From: Octopus vulgaris
Lineage: Eukaryota
DNA: 64,000 nucleotides
Assembly (NCBI GenBank): GCA_951406725.2
Contig: OX597818.1
Location: 140,120,001-140,184,000, forward strand
Direction of reading: 5' to 3'
Shown: piece by piece, positions 28,337-54,318 of the stretch
Numbering within the stretch: the stretch's first letter is position 1
Layout: each line of letters starts with the position of its first letter
Notes under the pieces: generated by a model
What the model saw: only the letters and a program-made list of their open reading frames with translations
Databases searched by the model: none
What the model was told of the DNA's origin: nothing
Translations under genes and position numbers: made by a program

Positions 28337-29413
28337 ATACGTATATATATATATATATATATATTTATGTGCGCGTGTACGCATGTGCTGTTTATAATAT
28401 CACTATTGCTTAAATAAAATTGGCAGCACTTTCATTCTATAGTATTCTTGTCAGGAAAAGAGAGAACTCGAGTTTCCCAACGGAGTGCTTCGTGGTCTGA
28501 AGACTGGTCCTGAGTGGATAAATGGTATATATCAGTAGCTTATGGAGGGACGCCAGGAGCTTCTAGTCTGAGGAGCGGCTAATAAACTTTGAAACGGCTC
28601 ATCACAGGAAATTCTCTTCTATGCCTCTCATATCAGTAGAATAGAAGTGTTTAAATGATTTCCCCACCTATAGTGATATTCTATGATGTTTACATAGATT
28701 TCAGTTCATAGGATTTAAGTGTTGTGCATAAATAGCTATTGCTTAATTACTGTCGAGCAATCAAATCCATAAATATTTCAATACAGCTAGATCCCTTCTT
28801 TTCAATACATGCCCCGTGTTCTCTCAGACCTTTTTCCTAGTTCTGTGGCCTCCATCCTTCCGGATTCCTAACATCTCTTGACAACACATAACAACAGCGT
28901 CACCTTTCAAAATAATTCCTCTCTCAGCCCTCCTCACTCATCTCTCGACTCACCATGTTTAGTTATACTCTCAATCCCCAGTTCATTCACCCTCTCCATG
29001 CTCTGCCTTTCTTATCTCTTCTTGCCATTCCTCTGCTTCAACACTTGCCCTTCAATCACCTATATTTTTCTTTCATTTACTTCTGTTTGCATTCTTCTTT
29101 ACCAATTCGACCGTCAAATTCCCTCGAGTTATAATATGAACTGTTCGTTGCCAATCTCTTCACCCTGCATCTGCTACTGGTTGCATATCCTTAATATTTT
29201 GCATACTCTATCGGCTAACATCACAACTATTAAGTAACACTGAGCCCCTCAAAACAGCTATCGGGCCTGAAATACCACGCAGTCTCCCCTTATTTTTCTA
29301 TATTTTCTTTACACTATGAATTTGTTCTGTAAATATATCAATAGTTATATCCTTATACAAGAATGCTCTTCTAAATATTCTCAGTTATTTCTTTCACTAT
29401 TTCTATGCCTGTT

Positions 29414-30918: not shown

Positions 30919-30991
30919 TGCACACACAGACGCATATATATATATATATATACCTTATTTACTGTGGTTAACCCCGACTCAACCCGGGACC

Positions 30992-31050
<59 letters not shown>

Positions 31051-31428: not shown

Positions 31429-32052
31429 TGTATATAAGTATGTATATATATATATATATATATATGTATATGTATATACATACATACACACATTTATATA
31501 TATGTACATACGTATATATATGAACGCTAAAAATTTGCGTAGTACGCACATTTTATAAACAATACGGTCAAAAGAGATGTCTCAAGATTTCAATCACTAC
31601 TTCTTCTTCTTCTTCTTCTTCTTTTTCTTCTTCTTCTTCTTCTTCTTCTTCTTCTTCTTCTTCTTCTTCTTCTTCTTCTTCTTCTTCTCGTTCTTCTCCT
31701 TCCCTACCAAGAATTCACAACGACCTCGAACCCACAAGAGGATACATGAGAGACAGGGACAGGCAGAAACAAGGAAAATGCCTCTTGTGTTTTAATACTA
31801 AGCAAATATTCTTTAAACACTTTTCTTTTAATTTTTTCCAAATTTAAATTTCCAAAATTTAACTCGTGTGTTCCTTTTCAACCTTGTACATATAAATATA
31901 TATATACATATATGTACATATATATATATATATATGTGTGTGTGTATGTATATATATATATATATATGTAGTTCCCGGGTTGATACGGGGTTAACCACAG
32001 TAAGTAAGGTACTCAATACATAGCAGAGTAAAATTAATTTATTATATAGAAG

Positions 32053-32104
32053 GAGCTTCTACAGGACTAGTACTGTTTCATTCAAGAGAAATCTTCAGAA
32101 AGCT
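32053..32104 (-). ncRNA. Type I hammerhead ribozyme (minus-strand copy)
   Basis: agcttt-CTGAAGA-tttctcttgaat-GAAA-cag-tactagtc-ctgtA-gaagct. Confidence 0.75.
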
Positions 32105-32223
32105 TCAGGAAGCTCCTTGGTAGGGAAGGAGAAGAACGAGAAGAAGAAGAAGAAGAAGAAGAAGAAGAAGAAGAAGAAGAAGAAGAAGAAGAAGAAGAAA
32201 AAGAAGAAGAAGAAGAAGAAGAA

Positions 32224-32276
32224 GAGCTTCCTGAAGATTTCTCTTGAATGAAACAGTACTAGTCCTGTAGAAGCTC
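32224..32276 (+). ncRNA. Type I hammerhead ribozyme (plus-strand copy)
   Basis: gagcttc-CTGAAGA-t.ttc(tctt)gaa.t-GAAA-cag(tactagtc)ctg-TA-gaagctc: 7-bp stem I, canonical core, GUA cleavage after 32269. Confidence 0.8.
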
Positions 32277-32286
32277 CTTCTATATA

Positions 32287-32336
<50 letters not shown>

Positions 32337-32907
32337 GTGTACAAGTCAGTAAATGGTGGGGTTGTGTTAACCACACGTGGAGAAATGATAGGAAAGGAAA
32401 AATAGTAATAATAAGGTAGAACGCTAAACTGAAAGAAAACTTTAATATAAATGGTTATAAGAAAGATTAAAAAAGGAAATCAAAGTAGTTTTCATTGCAA
32501 GGCAAATTTTCAAGATGAGGAAGGGAACACTTATTTTTATGATAATGAAAGGGAAAATATATATATATATATAATTTTTTTTTTTAAATAATAAATATAT
32601 ACAAAAATTAATAAATAAGTATACCAATACACTATAGAGTCTTTAAGCTTTTAAAATTCAGTATTATTCCATGGAAAAACTTCTTTGGAGGATTAGGATG
32701 CATGTGTTTTAGTGTAGTGTTTTGTATGAGAAGGATTGGTGTTTGTGTGTCAAATCAGGAAATGGAGCAGGAGTTATTCAGCTCCTGTGAATTAGGGGAG
32801 ACAATTCTGTGGATTTTATACTGTTTAATTGGAATGCTGGGTTTCTTGTCAATCAGGATCTTTATATTTATATTTTGTCAAACAGGATGCTAGAAAAAGG
32901 AATACAA

Positions 32908-33790
32908 TTATCGTGCAGTTTGCATATTAAGAAGCTTTTGGAATTTTTCAATAAAAAGATTCTCCTTGTTGATTCTTTCTTGTGTAGAGTTTATGTCTTT
33001 ACATTGATAGAAAGAGAATATACGAAATTTGAGATTTTTATTTCCAGCACAAGAGTCTATGTGGCTACTGAGTTGAATTTGACGGTATTGTGGGAGATTT
33101 ATATGTTCTTTATGGACTTCTAGTCTTCTCCGTAAAGGAAGACTCGTCTGTCCGAAATATTTGTGTCGGTAACATGCGCATATAAGGACATAAATTAGGT
33201 TCTCGGAGGAACAAGAAAAGTTGGTCTTGATTTTAAACTTTGTTCCTTGTTTGAATGAAAATTCAGAACCTTCAAGTTTGAAGATGCAGGTACCACAGTT
33301 AGGGTGTGCACAGTTTTTAACTGATGGGAGTGGATGTGGTGTGTGTAGTTTGGCATTTGTTAAGAATTGTTTTCAATGATTTATGTTGACTTTTGCATTT
33401 AAGAATTTTATGTGTATCGATAATATTTTTCATTTTCGGGTCCATGGACAGTAAGGGGTGGTTTTGTATGATTGTGGTGTATGCTTCGATGTTTTGGGGG
33501 TTGTGGATAGGTATGAATGGAAGTATTTTGAGGTTGGGTGTGTTACTGTGTTGGGTGGTTTTCGGTGTGTTATTGTCGAGTTCCTTGGCACGTTTTATTC
33601 CATAGTCTATGAGTGTGGAGGGATATTGGTGTTGTAATAGTTTTTTTTTAGGTCTTGAAAGCGTATTTCTTGGGTGGTTGAGTCCGAGACAATGGTGCAA
33701 ATCCTTTTAGCTAAGTTGAAGGGGATATTTATCTTGGTGTGTTTTGGGTGGCATGAACTGAAGATGAGGTATTGTTGTGAGTCTGTCTCA
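32908..33790 (-). pseudogene. Penelope-like RT C-terminus and GIY-YIG endonuclease (frameshifted)
   Basis: TDSQQYLIFSSCHPKHTKINIPFNLAKRICTIVS (PLE thumb); KNCAHPNCGTC; FSCSSENLIYVLICACYRHKYFGQTSLPLRRRLEVH...SHI...ERINKENLFIEKF..LLN; stop at 32908. Confidence 0.9.
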
Positions 33791-33902: not shown

Positions 33903-35038
33903 CATGCAGGAAGTAAATAGACACCTTTAATTTTCAAAATCGTTTATTTGATATACAAAGCGAACATTTGAAATGCAATCGATATGTAGGACTACATACT
34001 TTAGTATTTAGTTGACATTCCCTCGCAGTTTTTAATTCAGAAACTCTTTTTGACATTGAACTGATGAACTTGTGATTGTCTCTTGTGGAATTTCTACCCA
34101 CTTTTCACGCAACAATCGAAACAATTCATCTTTAGATTTAGGTTTCTGTCGAGCTTTCCGTATAGCGCTATCTGGTATGCTCCAAAGATTTTCAATTGGG
34201 TTCATGTCAGGAGAATGGCTCGGCCAAGGAAGCCTTTTGATTCCATGTTCAGTCAGCCATTGTTGGTTCCAACACATTCAATCAGCGCAGAACGACCATT
34301 GCTGTTGACAGCTCCCCATACCATTACAGAGATACCGCCATGTTTCACAGTTGGTTAGATTCGTTTCAAATCAAATTCTTGAATGGGAAGCTTCCAGACC
34401 CAATCACGTCCACTGTCTGAAAATAATGCAAATCTGGATCCATCTGCGAAAATCGCTCTATCCAAAAATGAACTGGATTTTTCTGACATCTCCTTGACTC
34501 ATTTCTTTCTTTTCATGATATGAATTGGTTGAAGGAGAGGTTTTCTTCTAGCTGCTCGCCCATAATACCCAAGCTTATGCAGGTATGTAACACATGTTCT
34601 TGGACTAACTTCTATATGTTTTGCAGTGTCAGAAGCCATAGAACGATGTTCGTTTTCCACAATTCTCTTCAAACAGTGAAGATTCCTTTCCGATGGACCA
34701 GGTCGGCCGGGACGAGAATCTGTTGATTCTTTTCCTTGGCTTTTGAATTGCACTATAATTCTATTAACAGTAGCAAGAGGAATTAGAAGACTTTCGGCAA
34801 TTTTTCACTGTCTAAGCCCAGCCTCATATTGCCCAACAATACGACCTCTTTGAAAATCTGACATTTCTGCTGATTTTTTTGTGTGCATGGCATGGTTATT
34901 CTTCGCAAATGTTTAACATACAGGAACCTGGAATGAAAAAGAATAATTACATTGTAAATTCTACACCGCTGTAAACATATTAAGAAGCTTAGATCAGACA
35001 TTTTGAAAATTAAATGTGTCTATTTACTTCCTACATGT
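33903..35038 (-). mobile_element. Tc1-family DNA transposon with both TIRs; transposase pseudogene
   Basis: ~38-bp TIRs catg(c/t)aggaagtaaatagacac(c/a)tttaattttcaaaat. Minus-strand transposase from ATG 34893 to ~34001 has [41 protein letters not shown] and WPSHSPDMNPIENLW, with stops and an internal deletion. Confidence 0.93.
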
Positions 35039-53212: not shown

Positions 53213-54318
53213 ATACAGTGCTACTGTTGTTTATAGCCCAAAGAAGACATCTCCAGCTGGCCAACGACACACAGTCTGTGTCCGATTAGCATTTGCGAAG
53301 CTAGGTCATCGATCACATTGGACTCAAATGGACTCGAGTTTCAGGGTGGTTACTCTCCTCAGCATGTGTTAATCACTAATTAGTGGTGAAAGGTCAAACC
53401 ACTCACAAATTATATATTTATACTTTTATATACTATATATTCTATATACTTTTCTAACGACTCATGTAAGGCTAGCGATGGGAGCGATTACCTCTCTTCG
53501 CAAATACAAATCGGACACAGACCATGTGTCGTTAGCCAGCTGGAGATGTCTTCCTAGGACCGTAAACAACAATAGAACTGTCATCTATAGGATGCCACAT
53601 GTATTTGGCAAATATGTATCTATAATAATAAATGCCAAAACTAATTTCTGTGTGCTGGTGTCACACTTTGACCCTGCCATCTCTCTGACTATTCAATGAC
53701 ACTTTCACTATTCCTCGTGATGGGGTGAGAGTAATAGTAGGCATAGAGACAGTAGTAGATTGACGGGTGTAATGGTAATGGGGTGATAGTAAAAGTACGA
53801 GCTGTAGCTGTGATAGAGGCGGAGGCGGCGGTGATGATGGTACTGGTGGTCAGTCAGGGATGATGGTGATAGTAAATGATGTAAAAACAGTGATTACGGT
53901 GGCGGAGTAAGCGATGTGAAAGACAGTGGTAATGGTGGTGGAGAGGAAGGCTGGGAATTCAAAGCTATTGATGGTGGTGGTATCAGAAGTCTGAATAGTG
54001 TGGTGGCGATGGTGGTGATACTGGTGATGGTTATGGTTACAAACAATCTATAGAAAATGAGAGAGAGAGAATGCAAGAGGTTAGACAACAAAGAAATTGT
54101 ACTGACCCCTGAATCGGAAGAGAAAAATAAGTTCCAAGTCGACAAATTATACCACTTTTTTGTTGAAAATTCTTCATTGCTTGAAAAATATTGGTAATGT
54201 TTAATAAAATTTAGTATGTACTCAATGCATTAAGTGTCATTGTTGGGCCCAAGGCTCAATGAAGCGCACTCCGCAGCAGCTAGCTTAAAGGCCACCCTGT
54301 CGGGCGGCTTTTAAGAGG

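What the first reader, a model, noticed from the sequence alone, without database searches (positions are those of the whole stretch)
32037..32291. Divergent pair of canonical hammerheads on opposite strands separated by a (GAA)n spacer
Both copies keep CUGAAGA, GAAA, a 4-bp stem III with a palindromic ACUAGU loop (a dimerisation candidate) and GUA. The plus copy has a perfect 7-bp stem I. A transcript in either direction would carry one ribozyme plus its own antisense, so a long hairpin competes with self-cleavage. This is a potential self-silencing or switch arrangement.
Basis: partly seen in the sequence, partly recalled or inferred. Interest (0 to 1): 0.75.

Follow-up and report, generated by a model that had tools for sequence, protein, structure and literature searches.

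The report
Back-to-back Penelope stubs bridged by flank
The two mirror-image hammerhead motifs are the front ends of two short copies of an abundant Penelope-like jumping gene, a layout found at more than 800 places in this genome, and the (GAA)n "spacer" is a reversed copy of DNA 400 bases away that was likely patched in when the two copies were joined, so this is probably insertion debris and not an RNA switch.

Summary
In detail: arms 32037-32104 and 32225-32292 are 99% complementary. The switch reading is not supported.

Both arms are stubs of a 5.2-5.4-kb retroelement with the protein motifs of the Hydra clade of Penelope-like elements. It has 4,600 exact end-matches and 819 tight head-to-head pairs in this genome. 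The left arm really starts at 31968 and carries the element's tail.

The spacer is a 109-nt inverted copy of 31600-31711; its unique 23-mer occurs only at these two places in 2.8 Gb.

Across the family, 43 of 89 sampled arms start within 10 nt of one base lying 29 nt after TATAAA. A non-parental G precedes that base 293 times against 71 for A or C. In 94 of 97 close pairs exactly one arm has the tail.

Likely mechanism: two cDNAs primed on both ends of a cut (TA)n tract run off the capped start of uncut RNA and are end-joined. Here the join used copied flank. The long hairpin is predicted to block both ribozymes; cleavage is untested.

The scan already noted such stubs, the cap idea and the tail rule on other DNA. 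The flank-copied bridge is the only special feature.

The parts
31600..31711 (+). Local template of the bridge: interrupted (CTT)n array plus 25 unique bases
   Evidence: the unique 23-mer occurs exactly twice in the genome, here and in the bridge
31890..31967 (.). Left part of the (TA)n target tract
   Evidence: family arms end in (TA)n
31968..32036 (-). Tail of the long arm (element positions about +69 to +140), ending at the second family end point
   Evidence: (40 of 40 scored matches 100% identical over 79 nt)
32037..32115 (-). Hammerhead part of the long arm: core 32098-32060, predicted cut after A32060, 10-nt duplication at its 5' end, non-parental G at 32115
32116..32224 (+).
32225..32292 (+). 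Short, tailless arm (element +1 to about +68): type I hammerhead, core 32231-32269, predicted cut after A32269; the G at 32224 is shared with the bridge
32292..32336 (.). Right part of the (TA)n target tract

Best explanation
The feature is one insertion of two short back-to-back copies of the front end of a Penelope-like retroelement with Hydra-clade protein motifs, sitting in a (TA)n tract and joined by a reversed copy of nearby DNA, likely made when two cDNAs primed on the two ends of the cut tract ran off the capped start of uncut element RNA and were then end-joined.

Shown: the parent element and its layout (promoter-like region, hammerhead, tail, RT-endonuclease ORF, 3-kb 3' region, hammerhead); the copy numbers; two fixed 3' end points; the pile-up of 5' ends at +1 to +10; the non-parental G; the one-tail-per-pair rule; the local origin of the bridge.

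Inferred: +1 is the transcription start and the G is the copied cap; the two 3' end points are internal RT start sites, as for the anole Poseidon element; the RNA was not self-cleaved when copied; the bridge was synthesised at the insertion site by a template jump of the RT or by synthesis-dependent end joining.

Predicted: any read-through transcript forms a dead-end hairpin in which neither ribozyme folds. The stub has no promoter region and no ORF, so it is likely inert.
For: Parent: tandem units of 5,191 and 5,387 nt with hammerhead, tail and ORF in one orientation. Open frames of 718 and 722 codons at L220 and L221. Motifs RWR, DKT, CxCX5C, CxxC and CxH are present and CX2-5CxxC is absent, as listed for Hydra in PMC8557442 section 11.

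Abundance: 4,600 exact matches to a 23-nt end anchor, control 0; 819 tight head-to-head pairs.

5' ends: of 89 arms scored from the first 91 listed places, 43 start at +1..+10 (18 at +1), 12 at +11..+43 and 0 at +44..+46; 34 reach upstream of +1. TATAAA begins at -29 in 103 of 106 long arms held (one family, not independent). The base before +1, counted only where no G precedes it, is G 293 times against A or C 71 times. G also follows pure (AT)n flank at L160, L172 and L173. An untemplated 5' G is attributed to cap copying for L1 and SVA (PMC3287187 passages).

3' ends: 42 of 89 at +65..+74 and 45 at +140..+144.

Pairs: exactly one tailed arm in 29 of 31 pairs of the unbiased sample (p 1e-7) and in 94 of 97 close pairs held. 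In 24 of 94 the tailless arm starts further 5' (by 5 nt or more in 6), so it cannot be a copy of the tailed arm.

Bridge: its unique 23-mer occurs only at the source and in the bridge. PMC11167929 (parts 1-2) reports cleavage and extension of both strands, two internal RT starts that define the tail, and uncut RNA as the main template.
Against: No transcription start was mapped; the runs laid were contigs and list no start sites. The extra G could also come from a 1-nt snap-back through stem I, or from the partner or flank at a GA microhomology; at this locus both G's can be read that way. D. virilis Penelope has a TATA-less internal promoter (PMC2377424 passages), so a TATA start is not a general rule. 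Both arms agree at the subfamily site +34 in 94 of 97 pairs, which fits one RNA copied twice or one source locus but also fits self-copying. The bridge is a single case (1 of 92 junctions held, a biased set), and no read spanning this locus was examined. The unit is longer than the <3 kb given for Hydra elements, and no tree was built. The parent protein itself has no RT or GIY-YIG Pfam match; the assignment rests on motifs and on 41% identity to a relative that has a GIY-YIG match.
Confidence: 0.78

Rival explanations
1. Same element, but the inversion comes from self-priming or fold-back of one nucleic acid (one cDNA snapping back on itself, or the antisense self-priming proposed for rotifer Penelopes), not from two target-primed cDNAs.
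For: Arms agree at site +34 in 94 of 97 pairs. Many junctions are centred on the AGCT palindrome at +1. PMC3846280 argues for self-priming from junction palindromes (passages).
Against: In 24 of 94 pairs the tailless arm holds 5' bases that the tailed arm lacks (5 nt or more in 6), and 3 of 97 pairs differ at the diagnostic site. A junction made before integration could not contain 109 nt of the target's own flank.
Confidence: 0.1
2. The pile-up at +1 is not a capped start but an RT stop at stem I with 1-nt snap-back, or a splice acceptor (TAG before +3) joined to a short exon.
For: The start coincides with the 5' strand of stem I. TAG and an upstream CTAAT look like an acceptor and branch point. 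In D. virilis an intron ends at helix I (PMC4209133). An earlier scan note proposed spliced stubs for another family.
Against: The only donor-like site in the unit would give C before GAG, and C stands there in 1 of 100 listed matches. Bases upstream of the G are not fixed (15 T, 15 A of 30). No joints in four laid runs. The RT passes the whole hammerhead in every long arm, and true starts drop to 3 of 89 just upstream of +1.
Confidence: 0.08
3. One reading: a selected self-silencing or switch element in which hairpin and ribozyme compete.
For: The hairpin is real in prediction. A>G differences in two RNA-like runs hint that family RNA is double-stranded and edited (family level only, not the same individual).
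Against: The arms match young family copies exactly. The layout is the routine insertion product. The spacer is accidental local DNA. The predicted hairpin leaves no population with the ribozyme fold. There is no promoter region in the stub.
Confidence: 0.02
4. The bridge is a long-read assembly artefact at a hairpin.
For: Hairpin arms in this assembly carry 1-nt deletions (410 arms) that short-read contigs do not show at 1%.
Against: Both arms here are free of such deletions. The bridge has sharp joins, keeps the interruption, and differs from its source by one repeat unit. A fold-back chimera would mirror at one point, not insert a segment from 400 nt away (inference).
Confidence: 0.02

Closest known systems
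Hydra clade of C-terminal endonuclease Penelope-like elements (Craig et al. 2021, PMC8557442; passages, section 11, supplement searches and part 2 read), e.g. Hydra-1_Obim, Hydra-1_Ajap, Penelope-13_HM
   Same: RT followed by a GIY-YIG-type endonuclease; RWR, DKT, CxCX5C, CxxC and CxH motifs; (TA)n targets; hammerhead in the pLTR. U and U at 10.1-11.1 also stand in 14 of the 25 Hydra families tabulated (my count). An inverted 5'-truncated copy and a one-sided tail are described.
   Different: The unit is 5.2-5.4 kb because of a 3-kb microsatellite-rich 3' region. Loop III is 8 nt (1-3 in the table) and stem II has 3 weak pairs. The tail is about 70 nt, not 30-40. The family's hammerhead and N-terminal strings were not found in that supplement.
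Poseidon element of the green anole, PAc (Frangieh et al. 2024, PMC11167929; parts 1-2 of 4 read)
   Same: Two RT start points that define a tail, both target strands cut and extended, AT-rich targets, uncut RNA as template.
   Different: Different clade. Here both end points lie in AT-rich patches that resemble the (TA)n target, and they lie upstream of the ORF. That paper does not discuss run-off stubs in the parts read.
Minimal type I hammerheads of Penelope-like elements (Cervera and de la Pena 2014, PMC4209133; parts 1-2 of 4 read)
   Same: Type I, palindromic loop III, predicted dimer, pairs on opposite strands 100-700 bp apart.
   Different: G10.1-C11.1 is not kept, and stem III is 4 bp, so a monomer fold is possible (probability 0.03 in prediction).
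[quoted passage not shown]
   Same: An inverted copy of nearby DNA at a junction with 1-3 nt microhomology.
   Different: That abstract places the structures within 30 nt of the break; here 109 nt were copied from about 260-370 nt left of the insertion's end.

Membership tests
Hydra-clade Penelope-like element (parent) | Single ORF with RT and C-terminal GIY-YIG endonuclease | tested here: met
   Open frames of 718 and 722 codons at L220, L221; YRDD and VY...YIG; 41% identity over 719 aa to P0097, which has a GIY-YIG Pfam match. The parent itself has no RT or GIY-YIG Pfam match.
Hydra-clade Penelope-like element (parent) | RWK-type motif and DKT in place of DKG | tested here: met
   RWR at 47 and DKT at 125 of P0122 (features)
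Hydra-clade Penelope-like element (parent) | CxCX5C linker; no CX2-5CxxC; no CCHH; CxxC and CxH around the conserved E and N | tested here: met
   CxCX5C at 576, CxxC at 676, CxH at 704, no CX2-5CxxC; one Cys only inside the VY...YIG core
Hydra-clade Penelope-like element (parent) | Insertion into (TA)n | tested here: met
   79 of 89 arms are followed by (TA)n by a strict test; both ends of this locus are
Hydra-clade Penelope-like element (parent) | Generally short (<3 kb); a tendency, not a strict criterion | tested here: not met
   Units of 5,191 and 5,387 nt
Hydra-clade Penelope-like element (parent) | Placement in the Hydra clade on an RT tree | not tested
   No tree built; resemblance to Hydra-1_Obim read by eye
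Type I hammerhead ribozyme | Core CUGANGA, GAAA, A15.1-U16.1, NUH triplet, three stems with open stem I | tested here: met
   the three common family variants fall at N7, loop II and loop III (126 arms)
Type I hammerhead ribozyme | G10.1-C11.1 closing pair | tested here: not met
   U and U here; common in Hydra hammerheads (14 of 25 families)
Type I hammerhead ribozyme | Rfam hammerhead match | tested here: not met
Type I hammerhead ribozyme | Self-cleavage after H17 | not testable with these tools
   Indirect only: 9 of 30 inspected arms with a non-A at +45 begin cleanly at +46, including two pairs with both arms there; no neighbouring-position control was run
Non-LTR retrozyme | Non-coding head-to-tail tandem units, each with a hammerhead | tested here: not met
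   Arms are head-to-head fragments of a coding element (definition)
MITE or other terminal-inverted-repeat DNA transposon | Equal terminal inverted repeats around a fixed interior | tested here: not met
   Arms are unequal in 94 of 97 pairs, junctions vary, and arm lengths run from tens of bases to kilobases

The most novel reading that the evidence does not exclude
This locus is a frozen integration intermediate that decides how Penelope-like inverted repeats arise. Target-flank DNA between the two arms means the inversion joint was made at the insertion site from two free cDNA ends, each a 'strong-stop'-like run-off to the RNA cap from one of two start sites of a dimeric enzyme, and not by self-priming of an antisense transcript as proposed in print. 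The hundreds of mini-palindromes in this genome would then be a direct map of the element's transcription start and RT start sites, and a large source of double-stranded, A-to-I edited RNA in the host.
Probability: 0.5. Interest if true: 0.5.

Novelty: new member of a known kind. Interest (0 to 1): 0.28.

Why it matters
As a ribozyme switch it does not matter: it is very likely transposon debris. Its value is mechanistic. PMC8557442 names the origin of inverted pLTRs and tails as an open question, and PMC3846280 proposes antisense self-priming. The family statistics (one tail per pair, starts at one base with an extra G) and the flank-copied bridge point to a two-ended, cap run-off model. That model can be tested with the existing in vitro system and with cap mapping. 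Practical points: such stubs will keep turning up as false 'paired ribozyme' hits, and hairpin arms in this assembly carry spurious 1-nt deletions.

Tried and rejected
Rfam: no match at gathering score and no hammerhead among weak matches.

Religation scars at the cut site: 410 arms have short deletions in +31..+52, mostly at G46 or G49 among the 100 listed. Short-read contigs show no such deletion at 1%, and 23 of 30 inspected lie in tight hairpins, often with further deletions. Rejected as a likely long-read hairpin artefact. Insertions are rare (24 arms) and scattered.

Programmed frameshift between RT and endonuclease: 7 of 8 copies matched lack one C in a run, but contigs of four other runs carry it and L220 and L221 are open. 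Rejected.

Splice-acceptor origin of +1: see rivals.

Expression: no RNA holder listed on record; the RNA labels are guesses and all runs are contigs, so no statement on expression or start sites.

Enrichment of starts at the cut site: 0 of 89 in the unbiased sample; at most 44 of 4,600 genome-wide have a non-A at +45; no neighbour control, so left open.

Conservation of the hammerhead in a second family (L239 and others) was seen by eye only. The dimer paper of Lunse et al. is not held and was seen only as a citation. Literature searches listed no paper on cap run-off stubs or flank-templated bridges in Penelope-like elements; the library lacks most subscription papers, and the supplements of the bioRxiv retrozyme preprint were not seen.

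Full report
Observation. Each arm has the hammerhead core, a 4-bp stem III and the ACUAGU loop. The isolated 53-nt motif is not unusually stable (z -0.78, 44 of 200 shuffles as good). The exact hammerhead fold has a predicted probability of 0.03, and two copies can pair through stem III and the loop. Rfam does not recognise it. The genome is 2.8 Gb and rich in microsatellites; an octopus is likely, by inference and from earlier scan notes.

It is a repeat. A 68-nt query gave 527 candidates; of 40 scored, most had an inverted partial copy right beside them. Flanks show one pattern: (TA)n, a short arm, a junction, a long arm with a 70-nt tail, (TA)n. The window's left arm carries that tail, so the unit spans 31968-32292. 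A 23-nt end anchor has 4,600 exact matches, and 819 places have two cores head to head within 30 nt. Eight of 9 long copies fetched also have an inverted partner within 10 kb.

The parent. Long copies lead to tandem units of 5.2-5.4 kb: promoter-like region, hammerhead, tail, ORF, a 3-kb microsatellite-rich 3' region, then hammerhead and tail again. The protein has 1,408 relatives among 7,995 scored candidates, mostly about 700 aa, and carries the motifs listed for the Hydra clade. The published Hydra hammerhead table has U and U at 10.1-11.1 in 14 of 25 families by my count, so this departure from the textbook fold is normal for the clade. The three common variants in 126 arms fall at N7, loop II and loop III. 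One of them (51 arms) shortens the palindrome to CUAG.

Why the stubs start where they do. I fetched the first 91 of the 100 places listed and scored 89 arms. Of these, 43 start at +1..+10, 12 at +11..+43, none at +44..+46, and 34 reach upstream; by inspection only 3 of the 34 truly start between -16 and -3. Position +1 (window 32225) lies 29 nt after TATAAA in 103 of 106 long arms held. The parent has T before +1, but stubs have G 293 times against 71 for A or C, also after pure (AT)n. An untemplated G is the accepted trace of cap copying in L1 and SVA. I infer that +1 is the transcription start and that the stubs are run-off cDNAs; this is not mapped, and a 1-nt snap-back could also give the G. 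A splice origin fails its one testable prediction. Because the arms run through the cut site, their templates were uncut, as reported for the anole element. A few arms do begin at +46: 9 of 30 inspected, among 44 candidates, including two pairs with both arms there; 8 more are stem I microhomology joins and 13 are point changes. This hints at occasional cleavage but lacks a control.

Why they are paired. Arms end at two fixed points, +65..+74 (42 of 89) and +140..+144 (45 of 89). Pairs almost always combine one of each: 29 of 31 in the unbiased sample and 94 of 97 among all close pairs held. The tailless arm starts further 5' in 24 of 94, so it is not simply a copy of the other. The arms share the subfamily base at +34 in 94 of 97, which suggests one RNA or one source locus per event. 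With the in vitro finding that both target strands are cut and extended from two internal starts, the simplest reading is two cDNAs, one per target end, joined at their 3' ends.

The spacer. It is an inverted copy of 31600-31711: 25 unique bases, the same interruption, one GAA unit fewer. Its unique 23-mer exists only at the source and in the spacer. Of 92 close junctions held, only this one has such a flank copy (biased set, only gaps over 22 nt examined). It was likely made at the insertion site by a template jump or by synthesis-dependent end joining (abstract only). That argues against a joint formed before integration, such as the antisense self-priming proposed for rotifer elements. It is one case and has not been confirmed with independent reads.

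Function. In the full unit the hairpin excludes the ribozyme fold on both strands. The stub lacks promoter region and ORF. Nothing suggests selection on this copy, and orthologous sites could not be examined. The A>G differences in two RNA-like runs are a family-level hint of editing and need matched DNA.

Prior art. The inverted copy and one-sided tail are described, as are opposite-strand hammerhead pairs. Earlier scan notes report Hydra stubs and the short/long rule in this genome and capped-start stubs in another. I reached those readings before seeing these notes and tested them here; the notes are not independent evidence. Also seen: passages of PMC13282606 (no mention of hammerheads or palindromes), PMC6765202 and PMC2377424, and part 1 of the retrozyme preprint.

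Verdict. Real, explained, ordinary in kind: a new family of a known clade, with one informative junction. Interest 0.28.

Noticed in passing
L088:5035, 5038, 5046, 5049 (element +34, +37, +45, +48): A>G differences in two RNA-like runs (up to 21% and 12% of contig depth at +37; 10% and 6% at the cut-site A) against under 0.1% in a large DNA-like run, with no T>C counterpart. Possible sense-strand A-to-I editing, including of the cleavage triplet; not the same individual, and the one-sidedness is unexplained.
   Followed up: partly
window 32337-33790, minus strand: Truncated second Penelope-like element with a GIY-YIG match and, by eye, CX4CxxC and CCHH motifs (Neptune or Nematis type); it may end at the same (TA)n tract.
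   Followed up: partly
window 30951-30995: Tail-only fragment of the same family between two (TA)n runs.
   Followed up: partly
window 28568-28614 (+) and 53321-53362 (-): Two other hammerhead-like motifs of different sequence; not studied.
   Followed up: no
L053 (8.7 kb before the window): A tiny head-to-head pair of the same family whose arms start downstream of the cut site.
   Followed up: no
L192/L193 and L205/L206: Two insertions in which both arms begin exactly at the predicted cut site (+46), candidates for copies of self-cleaved RNA.
   Followed up: partly
L239-L249: A second, 727-codon family in the genome with a hammerhead that has A and A at 10.1-11.1 and many intact copies.
   Followed up: no
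L088:6655 and hairpin arms genome-wide: Likely assembly errors: a missing C in a homopolymer that splits the ORF in many copies, and 1-nt deletions in 410 arms.
   Followed up: yes
L060, L092, L178: Pairs whose two arms differ at the subfamily site +34, possibly two different RNAs in one insertion.
   Followed up: partly
window 34000-34900: Tc1/mariner-like coding remnant, judged by eye (label recalled, not tested).
   Followed up: no
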